Part shown: positions 1 through 8,817 of the stretch, piece by piece
Layout of the letters: each line of letters starts with the position of its first letter
Position numbering within the stretch: position 1 is the stretch's first letter
Source of the DNA: a virus
Taxonomy: Duplodnaviria; Heunggongvirae; Uroviricota; Caudoviricetes
IMG/VR virus record: IMGVR_UViG_2671181028_000014
DNA: 8,817 nucleotides
Strand: one strand, 5' to 3'
Program-made: the position numbers and the translations under genes
The notes under the pieces: model-generated
Databases searched by the model: none
What the model saw: the letters and a program-made list of their open reading frames with translations, nothing else
What the model was told of the DNA's origin: nothing

Positions 1-2979
1 GCCAGCGATGCAGAACGGTCTTCTGCCCGTATGCAGCGTTTTATGGAGCGTCAGACTCAGGCCGCCCGGCAGACAACGCAGGCGGCTTCTTCGGCTGCAA
101 CAGCCGCATCCGTCCATGCGCAGACGGTGGAGAAGAACGCACAGGCTCATGAACGCATGGCCCGCGAGGTGGAGAAAACCCGCCAGCGCATGGAGGCGCT
201 GAGCCAGAAAATGCGCGAGGAACAGGCGCAGGCCATGGCTCTGGCGGAGGCTCAGGATAAAGCGGCTGCTGCGTTTTATCGTCAGATTGACAGTGTGAAA
301 CAGGCCGGTGCGGGGCTGCAGGAATTACAGCGTATTCAGCAACAGATCCGACAGGCCAGAAACAGTGGCGGGATTGGTCAGCAGGATTATCTGGCGCTGA
401 TTTCTGAGGTTACGGCGAAAACCCGTGTTCTTACACAGGCTGAGGAAGAGGCTACCCGACAGAAAGTGGCGTTTATCCGTCAGCTTAAAGAGCAGGCAAC
501 CCGCCAGAATCTTTCTTCTTCTGAGTTGCTTCGTGCTAAGGCTGCCCAGCTGGGGGTAAGCAGTGCTGCAGAAGTGTATATCCGCAAAATGGAGCAGGCA
601 GGAAAAGCCACGCATTCGCTGGGTCTGAAAAGTGCAGCAGCCCGTCAGGAGATAGGCGTTCTGATAGGTGAACTGGCCCGCGGCAATTTAGGTGCGCTGA
701 GGGGATCCGGAATAACGCTGGCTAACCGTGCCGGGTGGATAGACACACTGATGTCACCGAAAGGCATGATGCCAGGAGCGGTTATTGGCGGTATTGCCGC
801 GGCTGTCTATGGTCTGGGTAAAGCCTGGTATGACGGTCAGAAGGAGGGGGAAGAATTTAACCGCCAGCTGTCGCTGACGGGGCATTATGCCGGAGTCACT
901 GCCGGGCAGCTGTGGACGCTCAGTCGTGCTATTTCCGGGAATGGTATCACGCAACATGCTGCAGCCGGTGCGCTGGCTCAGGTGGTGGGGAGTGGTGCAT
1001 TTCGTGGAAACGATATCGGTATGGTGGCGAGAGCTGCCGCACAGATGGAGCGATCGGTTGGCCAGTCGGTCAGCGATACCATAAATCAGTTTAAGCGGCT
1101 GAAGGATGATCCTGTAAATGCCGCGAAGGCTCTGGACAATGAGCTGCATTTTCTTACTGCCACTCAGCTTGAGCAGATACGCGTCCTTGGGGAGCAGGGG
1201 CGGTCCAGTGATGCTGCACGGATAGCCATGTCTGCACTGGCAGAGGAAACCGGTCGGCGTACTGCGGATATTGATAATAACCTCAATGCGCTTGGCAGTA
1301 CGCTGAAGTATCTGTCTGATTTGTGGAGTCGTTTCTGGGATGCGGCCATGAATATTGGTCGTGAAGACTCGCTGGATGAACAGATTGCCGCTTTACAGGA
1401 GAAAGTGTCGCGGGCGAAAAGACTCCCCTGGACGGCATCATCTTCTCAGGTTGAATACGATCAGCAGCGTCTTAACGATCTTCAGGAGAAAAAACGCCAG
1501 AAGGATTTGCAGGATGCAAAAGAGCAGGCAGAGCGGAATTATCAGGAGCAACAGAAACGCCGTAATGCTGAAAATGCTGCACTGAACCGGATGAATGAAA
1601 CGGAAGCAGCACGACATCAGCGTGAAATAGCGCGTATTAATGCCATGCAGTACGCCGATCAGGCTGTCAGGGATGCGGCGATACAACGTGAAAATGAACG
1701 TTACGAGAAAGCCCTGGCATCCGGTAAGAAAAAAACACGCGAAACCCGTAATGATGAGGCCACCCGGTTATTGCTGCAGTACAGTCAGCAACAGGCACAG
1801 GTGGAAGGACAGATTGCTGCTGCCAGACAGTCAGCAGGCATTGCCACGGAAAGGATGACAGAAGCGCATAAACAGCTTCTGGCTCTGCAGCAGCGCATCA
1901 GCGACCTGGACGGGAAAAAACTGACGGCAGATGAAAAGAGTGTGCTGGCCCGTAAAGATGAACTGATTCAGGCACTGACGCTGCTGGATGTAAAACAGCA
2001 GGAGCTTCAGAAACAGACGGCACTCAACGAGCTGAAGAAAAAAACAATTCAGCTGACCAGTCAACTGGCTGAAGAAGAGCGCGCTCAGCGTCAGCAACAT
2101 GACCTGGATATCGCCACGGTGGGTATGGGTGATCAGCAGCGGCAGCGATATCAGGTACAACTGAGTCTTCGCCAGAAATACCAGCAACAGCTGGAGCAGT
2201 TGAGGCGGGATAGTGAGCAGAAAGGGATATATAACACTGATGACTACAGAAAGTCCGAGCAGGCGCTGACGGAGAGCCTGAACCGACAACTGAATGAGAA
2301 TCGCCGTTACTGGCAACAGCTTGAAGTTGTGCAGGGTAACTGGAAAAACGGTGCTATGCGGGCGTTTCAGAATTTCACGGCAGATGCGGATAATGCGGCA
2401 GGCACTGCTGAGCAGATGCTTACAGCGGCATTTAACAGTGCAGGTAATGCACTGGCAACGTTCTGTACTACCGGAAAACTGAACTTCAAATCTTTTACCG
2501 CCTCGCTCCTTTCTGATCTGGCAAAAATCATGGCTCAGATGTCCATGATGCAGGCAGTTAAGGGGATTGGTTCGGCGTTTGGCTGGGGGAGTGCAGCAAC
2601 TGCCAGTGTGACGCCCAATGCTGATGGTGGTGTTTATCAGTCTGCTGATTTGAGTCGCTACAGTGGCACGGTGGTTAACCGTCCGACGTTTTTTGCTTTT
2701 GCAAAAGGTGCAGGTGTGATGGGGGAAGCTGGGCCTGAAGCCATTCTGCCTCTGCGTCGTGGTGCTGACGGTAAGCTGGGGGTTGTGGCGGATATTGGTG
2801 GTTCAGGTATGGCGATGTTTGCCCCGCAGTACAACATCGAGATCAATAACGATGGCACGAACGGGCAGATAGGTCCGGCTGCCCTGAAGGTGGTTTATGA
2901 CCTCGGGAAAAAAGCAGCAGCGGACTTTATGCAACAGCAGTCCCGTGATGGTGGTCTGTTCTCCGGAGGTGGACGATGA
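1..2979 (+). CDS. H: Tail tape-measure protein (lambda gpH family), 5'-truncated by window edge
   Basis: Frame 1 is open from nt 1 to the TGA at 2977-2979, so the ATG at 31 is an internal Met (no SD upstream). Long Q/A/E/R-rich coiled-coil region, a hydrophobic segment (MMPGAVIGGIAAAVYGL, nt ~766-828), and a Gly-rich C-terminus ending ...NNDGTNGQIGPAALKVVYD...RDGGLFSGGGR, which closely matches my recollection of the lambda gpH C-terminus. Sits immediately upstream of M with an ATGA stop/start overlap. Confidence 0.9.
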   Translation, partial: ASDAERSSARMQRFMERQTQAARQTTQAASSAATAASVHAQTVEKNAQAHERMAREVEKTRQRMEALSQKMREEQAQAMALAEAQDKAAAAFYRQIDSVKQAGAGLQELQRIQQQIRQARNSGGIGQQDYLALISEVTAKTRVLTQAEEEATRQKVAFIRQLKEQATRQNLSSSELLRAKAAQLGVSSAAEVYIRKMEQAGKATHSLGLKSAAARQEIGVLIGELARGNLGALRGSGITLANRAGWIDTLMSPKGMMPGAVIGGIAAAVYGLGKAWYDGQKEGEEFNRQLSLTGHYAGVTAGQLWTLSRAISGNGITQHAAAGALAQVVGSGAFRGNDIGMVARAAAQMERSVGQSVSDTINQFKRLKDDPVNAAKALDNELHFLTATQLEQIRVLGEQGRSSDAARIAMSALAEETGRRTADIDNNLNALGSTLKYLSDLWSRFWDAAMNIGREDSLDEQIAALQEKVSRAKRLPWTASSSQVEYDQQRLNDLQEKKRQKDLQDAKEQAERNYQEQQKRRNAENAALNRMNETEAARHQREIARINAMQYADQAVRDAAIQRENERYEKALASGKKKTRETRNDEATRLLLQYSQQQAQVEGQIAAARQSAGIATERMTEAHKQLLALQQRISDLDGKKLTADEKSVLARKDELIQALTLLDVKQQELQKQTALNELKKKTIQLTSQLAEEERAQRQQHDLDIATVGMGDQQRQRYQVQLSLRQKYQQQLEQLRRDSEQKGIYNTDDYRKSEQALTESLNRQLNENRRYWQQLEVVQGNWKNGAMRAFQNFTADADNAAGTAEQMLTAAFNSAGNALATFCTTGKLNFKSFTASLLSDLAKIMAQMSMMQAVKGIGSAFGWGSAATASVTPNADGGVYQSADLSRYSGTVVNRPTFFAFAKGAGVMGEAGPEAILPLRRGADGKLGVVADIGGSGMAMFAPQYNIEINNDGTNGQIGPAALKVVYDLGKKAAADFMQQQSRDGGLFSGGGR

Positions 2980-3305
2980 AAACCTTCCGCTGGAAAGTGA
3001 AACCCGGTATGGATGTGGCTTCGGCCCCTTCCGTAATAAAGGTGCGCTTTGGTGATGGCTATTCTCAGCGTGCGCCTGCCGGGCTGAACGCTGACCTGAA
3101 AACGTACAGCGTGACGCTTTCTGTTCCCCGCGAGGAGGCCACGGCACTGGAATCGTTTCTGGCTGAGCACGGGGGCTGGAAGGCCTTTCTGTGGACGCCG
3201 CCTTATGGCTACCGGCAGATAAAGGTGACCTGCGCAAAATGGTCGTCGCGGGTCAGTATGTTGCGTGTTGAGTTCAGCGCAGAGTTTGAACAGGTGGTGA
3301 ACTGA
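2976..3305 (+). CDS. M: Minor tail protein M (tail tip assembly)
   Basis: 109-aa ORF; GGAGG at 2965-2969 six nt upstream of the ATG; start overlaps the tape-measure stop (ATGA at 2976-2979). Sequence (MKTFRWKVKPGMDVASAP...) and length match lambda gpM as I recall it. Confidence 0.92.
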   Translation: MKTFRWKVKPGMDVASAPSVIKVRFGDGYSQRAPAGLNADLKTYSVTLSVPREEATALESFLAEHGGWKAFLWTPPYGYRQIKVTCAKWSSRVSMLRVEFSAEFEQVVN

Positions 3306-4003
3306 TGCAGAATATCCGACAGGAAACACTGAATGAATGCACCCGTGCGGAGCAGTCTGCCAGCGTGGTGCTCTGGGAAATCGATCTGACAGAGGTCGGC
3401 GGAGATCGTTATTTCTTCTGTAATGAGCAGAACGAAAAAGGTGAACCAGTCACCTGGCAGGGGCGGCAGTATCAGGCCTATCCCATTCAGGGAAGTGGAT
3501 TTGAGATGAACGGCAAAGGAGCCAGTGCAAGGCCAACGCTGAAAGTCTCTAATCTGCACGGCATGGTCACCGGGATGGCGGAAGACCTGCAGAGTCTGGT
3601 CGGAGGAACGGTGGTCAGGCGTAAGGTTTACGCCCGTTTTCTGGATGCGGTGAACTTCGTCAACGGAAATAGCGATGCCGATCCGGAGCAGGAGGTGATC
3701 AGCTGCTGGCGCATCGAGCAGTGCAGCGAACTGAGCGCGGTGAGCGCCTCTTTTGTACTGTCCACGCCGACGGAAACGGATGGCGCTGTTTTTCCGGGGC
3801 GCATCATGCTGGCCAACACCTGTACCTGGACCTATCGCGGTGATGAGTGCGGTTATAGCGGTCCGGCTGTCGCGGATGAATATGACCAGCCGACGTCCGA
3901 TATCACGAAAGATAAATGCAGTAAATGCCTGAGTGGCTGTAAGTTTCGCAATAATGTCGGCAACTTTGGCGGCTTCCTTTCCATTAACAAACTTTCGCAG
4001 TAA
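3305..4003 (+). CDS. L: Minor tail protein L (tail tip; Fe-S cluster-binding Cys motif)
   Basis: 232-aa ORF; AGGTGG at 3292-3297 upstream; start ATG overlaps the M stop by 1 nt (TGATG at 3303-3307). C-terminal Cys cluster (CTWTYRGDECGYSG ... CSKCLSGCKF). Length and sequence match lambda gpL as I recall it. Confidence 0.92.
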   Translation: MQNIRQETLNECTRAEQSASVVLWEIDLTEVGGDRYFFCNEQNEKGEPVTWQGRQYQAYPIQGSGFEMNGKGASARPTLKVSNLHGMVTGMAEDLQSLVGGTVVRRKVYARFLDAVNFVNGNSDADPEQEVISCWRIEQCSELSAVSASFVLSTPTETDGAVFPGRIMLANTCTWTYRGDECGYSGPAVADEYDQPTSDITKDKCSKCLSGCKFRNNVGNFGGFLSINKLSQ

Positions 4004-4007
4004 TCCC

Positions 4008-4751
4008 ATGACAGAGACAGAATCAGCGATTCTGGCGCACGCCCGGCGATGTGCGCCAGCGGAGTCGTGCGGCTTCGTGGTGAGAACGCCGGAGGGGGAA
4101 AGATATTTTCCCTGCGTGAATATCTCCGGTGAGCCGGAGGAGTATTTCCGGATGTCGCCGGAGGACTGGCTGCAGGCAGAAATGCAGGGGGAGATTGTGG
4201 CGCTGGTCCACAGTCACCCCGGTGGTCTGCCCTGGCTGAGTGAGGCCGATCGGCGGCTGCAGGTGCAGAGTGATTTGCCGTGGTGGCTGGTCTGCCGGGG
4301 GGAGATTCACAAATTCCGCTGTGTGCCACATCTGACAGGACGGCGCTTTGAGCACGGGGTGACGGACTGTTACACGCTGTTCCGGGATGCCTACCATCTG
4401 GCGGGAATTGATATGCCGGATTTTGAGCGTGAGGATGACTGGTGGCGCAACGGTCAGAACCTTTACCTGGACAATATGGCGGTCACCGGCTTTTACCAGG
4501 TGCCCCTGTCCTCTGCACAGCCGGGCGATATGCTGCTGTGCTGCTTTGGTGCGTCGGTGCCGAATCATGCCGCCATTTACTGTGGTGACGGCGAGCTGCT
4601 GCACCATATTCCTGAACAACTGAGCAAACGAGAGAGGTATACCGACAAATGGCAGCGACGCACACACTCCCTCTGGCGTCACCGGGCATGGCACGCATCT
4701 GCCTTTACGGGGATTTACAACGATTTGGTCGCCGCATCGACCTTCGTGTGA
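4008..4751 (+). CDS. K: Tail assembly protein K (N-terminal MPN/JAMM-like domain + C-terminal NlpC/P60-like domain)
   Basis: ORF in frame 3. JAMM signature HSHPGGLPWLSEAD (H-x-H-x7-S-x2-D) with an upstream Glu (CAPAESCGF); C-terminal region has a candidate NlpC/P60 catalytic Cys (GVTDCYTLF) and His (VPNHAAIY). Start chosen as the first ATG after the L stop (4008) so that the MPN domain is complete; the lambda-style annotated start corresponds to the in-frame ATG at 4152. No strong SD before 4008, so the start is uncertain. Confidence 0.85.
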   Translation: MTETESAILAHARRCAPAESCGFVVRTPEGERYFPCVNISGEPEEYFRMSPEDWLQAEMQGEIVALVHSHPGGLPWLSEADRRLQVQSDLPWWLVCRGEIHKFRCVPHLTGRRFEHGVTDCYTLFRDAYHLAGIDMPDFEREDDWWRNGQNLYLDNMAVTGFYQVPLSSAQPGDMLLCCFGASVPNHAAIYCGDGELLHHIPEQLSKRERYTDKWQRRTHSLWRHRAWHASAFTGIYNDLVAASTFV

Positions 4752-5290
4752 AAACGGGGGCTGAAGCCATCCGGGCGCTGGCCACGCAGCTTCCGGCGTT
4801 TCGCCAGAAACTGAATGAGGGCTGGTATCAGGTGCGCATTTCCGGGCGTGATGCAGGCGAAAACGAATTATCTGCCCGTCTTAATGAGCCGCTGGCAAAT
4901 GGTGCCGTGATCCACATCGTACCGCGTCTGGCGGGTGCCAAAAGTGGCGGTATTTTTCAGGCAGTGCTGGGTGCGGCGCTAATTGCTACGGCAATCTGGA
5001 TGCCGGGGCTTAGTATTGTTGCAAGTAATCTCATGTTCTCTCTTGGGGCAGGTATGGTTTTAGGCGGTGTTGCGCAGATGCTGGCACCGAAAGCCAAAAC
5101 GCCTAAAGTGTCAGCCACTGATAACGGTAAGCAAAATACCTATTTTTCCTCATTGGATAACATGGTTGCCCAGGGCAATGTCCTGCCTGTTCTGTACGGT
5201 GAAATGCGCGTGGGGTCACGTGTGGCATCTCAGGAGATCAGCACGGCAGATGAAGGGGATGGTGGTCAGGTTGTGGTAATTGGGCGGTAA
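4649..5290 (+). CDS. I: Tail assembly protein I (ubiquitin-like N-terminus, hydrophobic central region)
   Basis: 213-aa ORF starting MAATHTLPLASPGMARICLYGDL...; GAGG at 4634-4637 upstream; overlaps the 3' end of K by 103 nt in a different frame, as I recall for lambda K/I. Ends ...EGDGGQVVVIGR, then TAA at 5288-5290. Confidence 0.9.
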   Translation: MAATHTLPLASPGMARICLYGDLQRFGRRIDLRVKTGAEAIRALATQLPAFRQKLNEGWYQVRISGRDAGENELSARLNEPLANGAVIHIVPRLAGAKSGGIFQAVLGAALIATAIWMPGLSIVASNLMFSLGAGMVLGGVAQMLAPKAKTPKVSATDNGKQNTYFSSLDNMVAQGNVLPVLYGEMRVGSRVASQEISTADEGDGGQVVVIGR

Positions 5291-5350
5291 TATTATTTAC
5301 TCATGTTCTAACTGATTTAATATTTATATCGAACACTGATAATTATTCTG
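5291..5350 (+). promoter_or_regulatory. Putative sigma70-type promoter region for the inserted lipoprotein gene (AT-rich)
   Basis: ~70% AT intergenic stretch immediately upstream of the lipoprotein gene. Weak -35-like TTTACT (5296-5301) and -10-like TAATAT (5318-5323) with a 16-nt spacer; other -10-like hexamers (TATTTA, TATATC) nearby. By eye only, no experimental support. Confidence 0.3.
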
Positions 5351-5362
5351 TTGGTTAGCTAT

Positions 5363-5701
5363 ATGAACAAAACGATTTTATTCTGCACGATTATTGCCTT
5401 AACAGGATGTAAATCTTTGGATTACGTAAAATCCGGCAAGCCTGTAATGGAAGGTAATTCATTAAAAAATATTGATGAATTGTCAGGCTGCATATCTAGA
5501 CAATGGGCTGGTAATGGAACACCTATAACATCCATTCCTATTGAGAATGGGGTAAGCCTTTTAGTTCCACAGGCTATGGGTGGGTATGATGTTGTGCTTG
5601 ATATCAAAAAAGCAGGAAATGGCAGTAGTTTTACTCTTTATGAACGCGTACCAGCATTAACGCCAAAAATTTTTGCTGATAGTGTTAATGCATGTAAATA
5701 A
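5363..5701 (+). CDS. Predicted outer-membrane lipoprotein of unknown function (moron between I and J)
   Basis: 112-aa ORF from the ATG at 5363 (the ORF track begins at an upstream TTG, 5351). N-terminus MNKTILFCTIIALTG|C has a basic n-region, hydrophobic h-region and an L-T-G-C lipobox; the residue after the lipidated Cys is Lys, not Asp, implying Lol sorting to the outer membrane. Gene is ~30-35% GC against >55% in the flanking tail genes. Followed by an intrinsic terminator. No SD is obvious. Confidence 0.8.
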   Translation: MNKTILFCTIIALTGCKSLDYVKSGKPVMEGNSLKNIDELSGCISRQWAGNGTPITSIPIENGVSLLVPQAMGGYDVVLDIKKAGNGSSFTLYERVPALTPKIFADSVNACK

Positions 5702-5724
5702 TAGTTAATCCTGCCGTAACTCAT

Positions 5725-5755
5725 GAGCCGCCTTTTGGGCGGCTTTGTTGTTTAT
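5725..5755 (+). terminator. Rho-independent terminator downstream of the lipoprotein gene
   Basis: GC-rich hairpin AGCCGCC (5726-5732) / GGCGGCT (5738-5744), 7 bp stem with a 5-nt loop (TTTTG), followed directly by a T-rich tract TTTGTTGTTTAT (5745-5755). Lies 24 nt after the lipoprotein stop and ~13 nt before the J ribosome-binding site. Confidence 0.7.
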
Positions 5756-5764
5756 GGAGTGTGA

Positions 5765-8817
<3,053 letters not shown>

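What the first reader, a model, noticed from the sequence alone, without database searches (positions are those of the whole stretch)
5363..5701. Small outer-membrane lipoprotein encoded immediately upstream of the receptor-binding protein gene: candidate receptor-masking or superinfection-exclusion factor
The ORF has a textbook lipoprotein signal peptide (MNKTILFCTIIALTG|C). The +2 residue is Lys, which predicts outer-membrane localisation. The mature ~96-aa product contains two further Cys (…LSGCISRQ… and C-terminal …NACK) that could form a disulfide. I do not recognise it as Bor, Lom, Cor or Llp by sequence. Its position directly 5' of J parallels known phage outer-membrane lipoproteins that block the phage's own receptor (T5 Llp, and Cor of phi80/N15-type phages, both acting on FhuA). 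Alternative roles are a serum-resistance or adhesion moron (Bor-like in role) or an abortive-infection or defence factor. The function is unknown and potentially novel.
Basis: partly seen in the sequence, partly recalled or inferred. Interest (0 to 1): 0.85.

Follow-up and report, generated by a model that had tools for sequence, protein, structure and literature searches.

The report
Uncharacterised prophage tail-module lipoprotein gene
A small, real and conserved gene inserted between two tail genes of an E. coli prophage encodes an outer-membrane lipoprotein of a family nobody has studied. It probably changes the cell envelope, most likely to keep other phages out, but nothing ties it to the phage's own receptor and its function is untested.

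Summary
Window 5363-5701 (+) is a genuine 112-aa gene with a canonical lipobox (LTG|C16) and no Asp at +2. Two further cysteines (C43, C111) are invariant across 66 family members.

It lies in a low-GC insertion of about 420 bp between tail genes I and J of a lambdoid E. coli prophage. It occurs in 338 of 5426 complete E. coli genomes and is always annotated "hypothetical".

It belongs to PHROG phrog_914 (function unknown). It has no Pfam, NCBIfam or PADLOC match and no sequence or fold relation to Cor, Llp, Bor, Lom or mEp021 Lpp. The nearest solved fold is Francisella Flpp3, and only weakly.

- Near-identical lipoproteins sit upstream of four different J receptor-binding-domain classes.
- Phages with the same J lack the gene.
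- Homologues sit at other tail-module junctions (mostly K|I, also T|H), beside an integrase, and in non-phage chromosome.

My best guess (about 0.4) is an envelope-level superinfection-exclusion factor that is not tuned to the resident J. HK97 gp15 is the closest precedent. A host-fitness role is the main rival. I rate it a new variant of a known kind, of moderate interest.

The parts
4688..5290 (+). Tail assembly protein I gene (upstream neighbour; start as called by PGAP, an alternative ATG is at 4649)
   Evidence: Pfam Lambda_tail_I, E 1.7e-23. RefSeq annotation of the 100%-identical DEC9B prophage.
5291..5715 (+). Insertion of about 420 bp relative to insert-free relatives: AT-rich leader, lipoprotein ORF and a short 3' tail
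   Evidence: Alignment with the I-J junctions of phages 2G7b and PhiR47_1, whose I-J gap is 60 bp against 478 bp here. GC is 0.32-0.39 against 0.55-0.60 in the flanks.
5291..5362 (+). 72-nt AT-rich leader with only weak sigma-70-like signals (best -10 is GATAAT at 5338-5343, with a poor -35)
   Evidence: The consensus scan finds no + strand promoter. A relaxed scan gives at most 9 of 12 matches with a 15-nt spacer. Whether the gene has its own promoter is unresolved.
5363..5701 (+). Lipoprotein gene, 112 aa including the signal peptide, family phrog_914
   Evidence: ORF. phrog_914, E 5.7e-33. 116 representative clusters. 338 E. coli genomes. AF2 pLDDT 84.
5363..5407 (+). Signal peptide, residues 1-15 (MNKTILFCTIIALTG); the lipobox LTGC spans 5399-5410
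   Evidence: Read directly from the sequence. The lipobox Cys is invariant in the family.
5408..5410 (+). Cys16 codon, the predicted lipidated N-terminal residue of the mature protein (+2 Lys, +3 Ser)
   Evidence: Sequence. Invariant column. None of the 20 lipobox-bearing homologues printed has Asp at +2.
5489..5491 (+). Cys43 codon, in predicted helix 37-50
   Evidence: Invariant in 66 sequences. Secondary structure from the model.
5693..5695 (+). Cys111 codon, at the end of the C-terminal helix 103-111; inferred disulfide partner of Cys43
   Evidence: Invariant in 66 sequences. The disulfide is inferred, because model coordinates could not be inspected.
5725..5755 (+). GC-rich hairpin plus U-rich tract just before J. 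It belongs to the phage backbone, not to the insert.
   Evidence: Terminator-like site. Fold energy -22.6 kcal/mol, z -2.7. The same hairpin is present in the insert-free phages 2G7b and PhiR47_1.
5769..8817 (+). 5' three quarters of the tail tip / host specificity gene J; it runs off the window and its receptor-binding C-terminus is outside it
   Evidence: RefSeq gpJ in DEC9B, 3396 bp. tblastn mapping.

Best explanation
The gene is a horizontally acquired accessory gene, moron-like, dropped between tail genes I and J of a lambdoid E. coli prophage.

**How the product is made.** It is made as a prolipoprotein and lipidated on Cys16. Because it lacks Asp at +2, the Lol pathway should send it to the inner leaflet of the outer membrane. 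There a short tether (residues about 17-28) would hold a compact alpha/beta domain of about 85 residues in the periplasm. This domain (beta-alpha-beta4-alpha) is stapled by a Cys43-Cys111 disulfide.

**Most likely job.** Envelope-level superinfection exclusion. By binding an outer-membrane or periplasmic host component, or the tail tip of an incoming siphovirus, it would stop adsorption or DNA delivery by other phages. Its specificity would NOT be matched to the receptor-binding domain of the resident phage's own J protein.

**Shown:** the gene, the lipobox, the conserved cysteines, the fold prediction, the insertion, purifying selection, and the family's strong association with lambda-like tail-tip gene clusters.

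**Inferred:** lipidation, outer-membrane localisation, the disulfide, expression from the prophage, and the exclusion function itself.
For: **Envelope protein.**
- The lipobox and two extra cysteines are the only invariant columns across 66 relatives.
- The model is confident.

**Accessory insertion.**
- The site is occupied in some related phages and empty in others.
- GC is 8-20 points below the flanks in all enterobacterial phage loci.

**Under selection.** 57 of 60 copies are intact, and synonymous changes outnumber non-synonymous ones.

**Phage-associated.** Twelve contexts outside the window's own group were examined, counting each lineage once.
- Nine are lambda-like tail modules, at K|I or T|H: and L078.
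- One is a lipoprotein + I pair outside the tail module, in the early/immunity arm of phiAH14a.
- One is a prophage end next to an integrase.
- One is clearly chromosomal.
- A thirteenth, next to dnaX, is probably also non-phage.
- Three further short contigs were uninformative.

**Hot spot for lipoprotein genes.**
- The K|I slot holds lipoprotein genes of at least three unrelated families: phrog_914, phrog_2320 and phrog_890.
- In Fraca and LMessi two of them sit in tandem. Such an array is what an arms-race locus looks like.

**Precedents.**
- HK97 gp15 is a tail-operon moron in the same T|tape-measure slot as the Enterobacter homologue. It is an exclusion protein that acts independently of the receptor, depends on the incoming tail, and has mostly chromosomal homologues (PMC3594210).
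- Lipoproteins Lpp021 and Lpp010, encoded in the structural-gene cluster of mEpimmI phages, exclude OmpA- and LamB-dependent phages (PMC11893012).
- T5 Llp is a periplasmic, disulfide-constrained outer-membrane lipoprotein that blocks FhuA (PMC9586334).
Against: - There is no experimental or homology link to any exclusion or defence protein. PADLOC gives nothing, and Pfam and NCBIfam give nothing.
- At least one homologue (38% identity) is a native-GC chromosomal gene in Shimwellia blattae, between a yidB-like gene and ecotin, with no phage genes nearby. Another lies next to dnaX. So the family has, or had, a function unrelated to phages.
- No convincing promoter of its own was found. In several phages the gene is packed 6-40 nt after the preceding gene, or overlaps it. 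Expression in the lysogen is therefore unproven, and it may simply be a late gene.
Confidence: 0.4

Rival explanations
1. Mask of the phage's own receptor. The lipoprotein binds the periplasmic face of the outer-membrane protein that this prophage's J uses. This would block homotypic superinfection and inactivation of progeny on cell debris, as T5 Llp and Cor do with FhuA.
For: - It is immediately upstream of J in all 59 E. coli-type loci examined.
- It is an outer-membrane lipoprotein with a conserved disulfide, like Llp.
- The majority J class (25 of 36 loci) is homogeneous.
- mEpimmI Lpp proteins show that such a mechanism works for porin receptors.
Against: - Identical or 99%-identical lipoproteins are linked to four J distal-domain classes: 90-100%, about 60% and about 42% identity, and one unrelated.
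- The same J types are common in phages lacking the gene.
- Homologues sit at other junctions far from J.
- Fraca already carries cor.
- There is no homology to Llp or Cor beyond the signal peptide.
Confidence: 0.12
2. Host-fitness (lysogenic-conversion) factor with no role against phages. It would be a periplasmic or outer-membrane lipoprotein that protects or remodels the envelope, for example by inhibiting or binding a host-derived enzyme, resisting serum or bile, or helping adhesion. It would be carried by prophages as cargo, like Bor or Lom.
For: - There are chromosomal, native-GC homologues outside prophages. One lies next to ecotin, a periplasmic protease inhibitor, and another next to dnaX.
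- The nearest solved fold is Flpp3, a Francisella outer-membrane virulence lipoprotein.
- The gene does not co-vary with J.
- It is widespread in commensal and pathogenic E. coli from many hosts.
Against: - The family is overwhelmingly found inside lambda-like tail modules rather than at prophage ends, where virulence cargo usually sits.
- The fold match is weak (6-9% identity).
- There is no Pfam match to Bor, Iss, MliC, PliC or Ivy-type families.
- Adjacency to ecotin was seen in one species only.
Confidence: 0.25
3. Late lytic-cycle helper. The gene would be transcribed with the tail genes and act during virion production or release, for example by keeping progeny from sticking to debris or vesicles, or by modulating outer-membrane disruption. 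It would not act in the lysogen.
For: - No convincing promoter of its own was found.
- The gene is tightly packed with, or overlaps, the preceding late genes in several phages.
- The downstream hairpin belongs to the backbone.
- Its position in the tail-tip cluster is kept over 25-58% identity.
Against: - It is dispensable, since close relatives with the same tail genes lack it.
- Low GC marks it as foreign to the operon.
- It is not in the lysis cassette.
- Chromosomal homologues exist.
- Protecting progeny would again require matching to the receptor, and that is not seen.
Confidence: 0.1

Closest known systems
HK97 gp15 (tail-operon moron; inner-membrane superinfection-exclusion protein; YebO-like)
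   Same: - It is a small envelope protein encoded by an insertion inside the tail operon of a lambdoid phage.
- Its T|tape-measure slot is exactly where the 50%-identical Enterobacter homologue sits (PMC3594210).
- Its exclusion is independent of the receptor.
- Most of its homologues are chromosomal.
   Different: gp15 is an inner-membrane protein with a transmembrane segment, not a lipoprotein. There is no sequence relation (Pfam gives nothing). The function of the present gene is untested.
Cor (phi80, N15, HK022, T1; PHROG phrog_1119)
   Same: It is a small phage-encoded lipoprotein with a conserved intramolecular disulfide, encoded in the tail region of temperate siphoviruses.
   Different: - Cor is about 77 aa, lies downstream of J and the tail fibres, and is specific for FhuA.
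- hhalign matches only the signal peptide and a few following residues.
- It belongs to a different PHROG.
- Fraca carries both genes.
T5 Llp (PDB 8A60 chain B)
   Same: It is an outer-membrane-anchored periplasmic lipoprotein whose termini are constrained by a disulfide. It is encoded next to the receptor-binding protein gene (PMC9586334).
   Different: - Llp is 61 aa when mature, against 97 here.
- The only sequence match is the signal peptide (E 0.76).
- Llp is matched to its phage's receptor; this gene does not co-vary with J.
Lpp021 / Lpp010 of mEpimmI phages (PMC11893012)
   Same: These are lipoproteins encoded within the structural-gene cluster of temperate E. coli siphoviruses. They have been shown to exclude phages that use OmpA or LamB.
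   Different: Lpp021 is 72 aa, lies downstream of J on the opposite strand, and shares only the signal peptide. Lpp010 was not compared.
Lambda Bor / Iss
   Same: It is a prophage-encoded outer-membrane lipoprotein of about 97 aa with an internal and a near-C-terminal cysteine. It is a lysogenic-conversion (serum-resistance) factor.
   Different: There is no Pfam Lambda_Bor match for this protein or for any of 66 relatives. It lies at a different genomic position (Bor is near the lysis genes; this is from my own knowledge). Bor does not appear among the BFVD fold matches.
Flpp3 / DUF3568 (Francisella outer-membrane lipoprotein; PDB 6PNY, 2MU4, 9NLT)
   Different: - Identity is only 6-9%, and there is no Pfam DUF3568 hit.
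- The similarity is at the level of a common small fold that is also shared with DUF302, KA1 and BamC-N domains.
- It gives no functional inference.

Membership tests
Bacterial lipoprotein (Lgt/LspA/Lnt substrate) | N-terminal signal peptide with a positive n-region, an uncharged h-region and a lipobox [LVI][ASTVI][GAS]C, with the Cys at about position 15-35 | tested here: met
   The sequence is MNK-TILFCTIIA-LTG|C16. The lipobox Cys is invariant in 66 relatives. SignalP and LipoP were not available.
Bacterial lipoprotein (Lgt/LspA/Lnt substrate) | Actual lipidation and outer-membrane localisation | not testable with these tools
   This is inferred only from +2 Lys / +3 Ser (no Asp+2 Lol-avoidance signal). 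It needs globomycin or palmitate labelling and fractionation.
PHROG phrog_914 (function unknown) | Full-length match to the family HMM | tested here: met
   E 5.7e-33 over 1-112 of 118 profile positions. The Klebsiella, Pseudomonas and Enterobacter relatives hit the same PHROG.
Cor superinfection-exclusion lipoproteins (phrog_1119) | Sequence homology to Cor | tested here: not met
   PHROG scan returns only phrog_914. hhalign of the family profile against Fraca Cor aligns 29 columns, covering the signal peptide and the first residues after it.
Cor superinfection-exclusion lipoproteins (phrog_1119) | Inactivation of FhuA / exclusion of FhuA-dependent phages | not testable with these tools
   This needs plating and ferrichrome or colicin M assays.
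T5 Llp-type lytic-conversion lipoprotein | Sequence or fold similarity to Llp (8A60_B) | tested here: not met
T5 Llp-type lytic-conversion lipoprotein | Cognate pairing with the phage's own receptor-binding protein | tested here: not met
   Lipoproteins 98-100% identical are linked to four J distal-domain classes. The same J types occur without the gene. Caveat: the receptors of these J classes are unknown.
Lambda Bor / Iss (Pfam Lambda_Bor) | Match to the family HMM | tested here: not met
   No Pfam family at E up to 1 for the protein. None among 66 relatives.
Lom / Ail / OmpX beta-barrels | Match to the family HMM; eight-stranded barrel | tested here: not met
   There is no Pfam hit. The model is a helix/sheet sandwich. 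The prophage has a separate lom downstream of J.
Moron (Juhala/Hendrix sense) | Present in some and absent from other closely related phages at the same junction | tested here: met
   The I-J gap is 478 bp here against 60 bp in 2G7b and PhiR47_1, with clean flanking alignment.
Moron (Juhala/Hendrix sense) | Base composition different from the surrounding genes | tested here: met
   GC is 0.37 against 0.57-0.59 in the flanks. The same offset is seen in all enterobacterial phage loci.
Moron (Juhala/Hendrix sense) | Own promoter, allowing expression from the repressed prophage | tested here: inconclusive
   The consensus scan finds none on the + strand. The best relaxed candidate has a 5/6 -10 box and a poor -35. 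No transcript data are available.
Moron (Juhala/Hendrix sense) | Own terminator | tested here: not met
   The hairpin at 5725-5745 is also present in insert-free phages, so it belongs to the I-J backbone.
mEpimmI Lpp exclusion lipoproteins | Sequence homology to Lpp021 (mEp021 gp81) | tested here: not met
   hhalign aligns only 20 signal-peptide columns, probability 33%. Lpp010 was not tested.
DUF3568 / Flpp3 | Family HMM match and shared fold | tested here: inconclusive
Known anti-phage defence systems (PADLOC-DB) | Match to any defence-protein HMM | tested here: not met
   0 families at E up to 1.

The most novel reading that the evidence does not exclude
The lipoprotein may be functionally coupled not to the receptor-binding protein J but to the tail-tip protein I, or to K.

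**Why I raise it.** Across enterobacterial, Pseudomonas and metagenomic phages at 25-58% identity it sits immediately next to gene I, usually K|lpp|I and here I|lpp|J. In Pseudomonas phage phiAH14a a lipoprotein + I-paralogue pair has been copied as a unit into the early/immunity arm.

**What it would mean.** The family would be a receptor-independent exclusion system. It would recognise, in the periplasm, a tail-tip protein ejected by incoming lambda-like siphoviruses and block channel formation. That would make it a Gram-negative, outer-membrane counterpart of TP-J34 Ltp or HK97 gp15. The K|I junction would then be a general hot spot for diverse exclusion lipoproteins (phrog_914, phrog_2320, phrog_890).
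Probability: 0.1. Interest if true: 0.75.

Novelty: new variant of a known kind. Interest (0 to 1): 0.45.

Why it matters
About 6% of complete E. coli genomes carry this intact, purifying-selected envelope gene inside a prophage tail operon, as do many Enterobacter, Citrobacter, Klebsiella and Kluyvera prophages. Nobody has named or tested it.

If it is an exclusion factor, it adds a new protein family and fold to the short list of phage lipoproteins that shut the door on other phages. That matters for predicting phage host range and for phage therapy against lysogens. Its independence from the resident J would point to a mechanism different from Llp and Cor.

If it is instead a host-fitness factor, it is a widespread lysogenic-conversion gene in pathogenic and commensal E. 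coli.

Either way, the K|I and I|J junctions of lambda-like tails emerge as a hot spot that collects unrelated lipoprotein genes. That pattern can be tested systematically.

Tried and rejected
1. **A private terminator.** I first took the hairpin at 5725-5745 for the moron's own terminator. I rejected this because the same hairpin sits in the empty I-J junction of 2G7b and PhiR47_1.
2. **Homology to the experimentally characterised mEp021 Lpp and to Cor.** Only the signal peptide aligns.
3. **Literature look-ups.** Searches for phrog_914 and for WP_153274582 found no paper.
4. **Stenotrophomonas phage papers.** They surfaced in a 'moron / lipoprotein / tail assembly' search, but the lipoproteins they mention are o-spanins and are irrelevant.
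5. **Fraca and LMessi as virulent phages.** That would have forced a lytic-cycle function. Rejected, because Fraca has an integrase, an excisionase and a repressor.
6. **The 234-aa gene upstream of the homologue on contig L095 as a K gene.** There is no BLAST or Pfam support.
7. **Searches that could not be run or found little.**
   - Family alignments A3 and A5 were too divergent for locus scans.
   - The one genome-contig scan found a single Kluyvera prophage.
   - Single-protein IMG/VR scans found only near-identical relatives or nothing.
8. **P0030.** This 1047-aa repeat protein, hit in 5 stretches, looks like a low-complexity or repeat artefact and was left out.
9. **Cys43-Cys111 distance.** I could not measure it in the model because the coordinates are not exposed.
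10. **RNA families.** The Rfam scan of the window found nothing.
Full report
**What is in the window.** The 8.8-kb window is the tail-tip part of a lambda-like prophage. It holds the 3' part of the tape-measure gene H (31-2979), M (2976-3305), L (3305-4003), K (ending at 4751; JAB + NlpC/P60) and I (4688-5290). These are followed by the ORF in question (5363-5701) and the first 3 kb of J from 5769. The stretch 5291-5770 is 100% identical to a prophage integrated next to dusA in E. coli DEC9B. There PGAP calls the same 112-aa ORF 'hypothetical protein'.

**Check of the observation.**
- The ORF, the start codon and the signal peptide are as described: MNKTILFCTIIALTG|C16, with Lys at +2 and Ser at +3.
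- The two other cysteines are C43 and C111.
- In a 66-sequence alignment of the family (mean column identity 20%) the only invariant columns are C16, C43 and C111. P27, W48 and G63 are nearly invariant.
- None of the 20 lipobox-bearing homologues printed has Asp at +2.
- The gene is not a chance ORF. A profile search of 1.84 billion representative proteins finds 116 clusters, nearly all 105-125 aa. The gene is present in 338 of 5426 complete E. coli genomes, in 350 copies of which 349 are chromosomal.
- Among 60 copies compared, 57 are intact. There are 11 synonymous against 6 non-synonymous distinct codon changes, which indicates purifying selection.
- AlphaFold2 with a shallow alignment gives pLDDT 84 overall. 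Eight of the nine 10-residue blocks after residue 20 are at 88 or above (80 for residues 91-100). The topology is a short helix (19-24), then beta-alpha-beta4-alpha. C43 lies in the long helix and C111 at the end of the C-terminal helix. A disulfide between them is inferred, because I could not inspect coordinates.

**It is an insertion.**
- Phages 2G7b and PhiR47_1 have J C-termini 97% and 92% identical to that of this prophage. Their I-J gap is 60 bp against 478 bp here.
- The three-way alignment places an insertion of about 420 bp (about 5291-5715) right after the stop codon of I.
- GC is 0.32-0.39 inside against 0.55-0.60 outside. The same 8-20 point deficit holds for the homologues in all enterobacterial phage loci examined.
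- Two classical moron features are not established. The GC-rich hairpin at 5725-5745 is also present in the insert-free phages, so it belongs to the backbone. The 72-nt AT-rich leader has only a weak promoter candidate, with -10 GATAAT at 5338-5343 and a poor -35. Whether the gene is expressed in the lysogen is therefore open.

**What family it belongs to.**
- Pfam, NCBIfam and PADLOC give nothing. Pfam also gives nothing for any of 66 relatives.
- PHROGs places it in phrog_914, function unknown (E 5.7e-33). The Klebsiella, Pseudomonas and Enterobacter relatives fall in the same PHROG.
- Every database name for the close clusters is 'hypothetical protein', 'Lipoprotein' or 'Phage protein'.
- No paper mentions the PHROG or the RefSeq accession.
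- Sequence searches of the PDB match only the signal peptide, including that of T5 Llp.
- In BFVD the only significant match is a protein of Pseudomonas phage phiAH14a, which proves to be a true family member.
- Profile comparison with Cor of phage Fraca and with the exclusion lipoprotein gp81 of mEp021 aligns only the signal peptide.

**Where relatives sit.** This is the most informative result.
- *E. coli-type copies (90-100% identity; 56 of 59 at 98-100%).* In all 59 IMG/VR loci the gene follows I, and in nearly all J follows directly. The tape-measure gene upstream ranges from 25% to 100% identity, so the gene travels in mosaic prophages.
- *More distant relatives between K and I.*
  - Fraca and LMessi (30-33%).
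  - Klebsiella phage ST846-OXA48phi9.1, plus 13 IMG/VR relatives of which the 12 with downstream flank show the same order.
  - A Kluyvera prophage (53%).
  - P0011, P0016 and P0017.
  - P0023, where the start overlaps the stop of K and the next gene is an I-J fusion.
- *Between chaperone T and the tape-measure gene.* The 50%-identical Enterobacter/Citrobacter group lies here. This is the very slot of the HK97 gene 15 moron (PMC3594210).
- *At a prophage end.* P0033 lies next to an integrase.
- *In non-phage chromosome.* P0020 (38% identity) is a native-GC chromosomal gene of Shimwellia blattae, between a yidB-like gene and ecotin, with no phage genes within 6 kb. P0027 lies next to dnaX.

**Test of the own-receptor model.**
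- For 36 loci with a complete J (35 from IMG/VR plus DEC9B), I compared the last 250 and the last 120 residues. This is the region that carries receptor specificity in lambda (established knowledge).
- The distal 120 aa fall into four classes:

| Class | Distal 120 aa compared with this prophage | Loci |
|---|---|---|
| A | 90-100% identical | 25 |
| B | about 60% identical | 3 |
| C | about 42% identical | 6 |
| D | unrelated | 2 |

- None is close to lambda J (at most 44% identity).
- The lipoprotein is 100% identical in members of classes A, B and C, and 99% identical in class D.
- Class C is the J of many Stx1a/Stx2c phages and of PhiR49_1. A tblastn of the lipoprotein against 50,697 phage records hit only Fraca and LMessi. 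So each of these J types exists abundantly without the gene.
- Fraca has a family member as well as cor.
- Together these results argue against a cognate Llp/Cor-like pairing with J. They do not exclude it if classes A to C all use one receptor, which I cannot determine.

**Mechanism.** I commit to envelope-level superinfection exclusion that is not tuned to the resident J (confidence about 0.4). The reasons are as follows.
- The protein is exported, is probably outer-membrane-anchored, and is under selection.
- The family lives almost entirely inside lambda-like tail-tip clusters.
- The K|I junction collects unrelated lipoprotein genes. phrog_2320 sits directly upstream of the family member in Fraca and LMessi, and phrog_890 occupies that slot in phiAH14a. 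That looks like an arms-race hot spot.
- The precedents fit. HK97 gp15 sits in the same kind of place, excludes through the incoming tail rather than the receptor, and has mostly chromosomal homologues. mEpimmI Lpp proteins and T5 Llp show that small outer-membrane lipoproteins can do this.

The main rival (about 0.25) is a host-fitness envelope factor. It is supported by the chromosomal homologues and by the weak Flpp3 resemblance. A purely late, lytic-cycle role (about 0.1) is kept alive by the missing promoter and by the tight packing with late genes.

**Most novel reading not excluded.**
- The gene is next to I in almost every phage lineage.
- In phiAH14a a family member lies directly upstream of gp32 in the early/immunity arm. 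This member is mis-annotated as gp33/gp34; its true start reads MRIAALGLAVALLSGC.
- gp32 is an I paralogue 79% identical to the tail-module I (gp84), with an identical C-terminal 60 aa.
- So a lipoprotein + I cassette has moved as a unit at least once. The lipoprotein might therefore recognise protein I (or K) of incoming phages in the periplasm. I give this about 0.1.

**Verdict.** The gene is an uncharacterised phage-borne lipoprotein family (phrog_914), unrelated to Cor, Llp, Bor and Lom. It is best filed as a new variant of a known kind, namely tail-module lipoprotein morons. Interest is moderate. A specialist would not be surprised by such a gene. However, it is common, conserved, easy to test, and apparently does not follow the Llp/Cor logic.

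Noticed in passing
window 5725-5755; L012 (2G7b) about 6460-6500; L013 (PhiR47_1) about 3440-3480: The I-J intergenic hairpin with a U-tract is conserved between phages with and without the insert. It shows at least one compensatory stem change (G-C here, A-U in 2G7b and PhiR47_1). It may be a regulatory or terminator element inside the late operon just before J.
   Followed up: partly
L090:4959-5948 and L092:26339-27410 (Pseudomonas phage phiAH14a, NC_074659): phiAH14a has two lipoprotein + I pairs. A phrog_914 member (mis-annotated as gp33/gp34) lies upstream of an I paralogue (gp32) in the early/immunity arm. An unrelated phrog_890 lipoprotein (gp83) lies upstream of the tail-module I (gp84). 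The two I proteins are 79% identical, with identical C-terminal 60 aa.
   Followed up: partly
L002:5647-5994 (LMessi); L001:5725-5994 (Fraca): Directly upstream of the family member lies a second, unrelated lipoprotein gene (phrog_2320; MRKFLSILACSLIIVGC... in LMessi). In Fraca its annotated start is too far downstream and hides the signal peptide. These phages therefore carry tandem lipoproteins in the K|I slot, and Fraca also has cor after J.
   Followed up: partly
L075, L076, L077 (IMG/VR E. coli prophages): Three of 60 copies are frameshifted or truncated (98 aa and 37 aa products), so the gene is occasionally lost. One E. coli genome (strain C7) carries three copies, and one copy in the collection is on a plasmid.
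   Followed up: no
L010:5544-6946 (Shimwellia blattae CP001560): The chromosomal homologue sits between a yidB-like gene and ecotin, near copCD-yebY, and its GC equals or exceeds that of the flanks. This may be the native form of the family. Conservation of this neighbourhood in other species was not examined.
   Followed up: no
L017:2044-4939 and L018:2490-4939: In the P0017 phages the K-I interval also holds an immI-like block (Arc-family repressors, Bro-N/KilA-N/ANT antirepressors) upstream of the lipoprotein. This shows that the K|I junction accepts several kb of accessory genes.
   Followed up: no
L099:3473-4966: In one metagenomic phage the gene after the lipoprotein is a fusion of an I-type ubiquitin-like domain (residues 8-88) with J (FNIII-A_GpJ domain).
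   Followed up: no
window 31-2979 versus L019-L077: The tape-measure gene upstream of otherwise 90-100% identical M-L-K-I-lipoprotein blocks is either about 97-100% or only about 25% identical to the window's. This marks a sharp mosaic boundary at the H/M junction.
   Followed up: no
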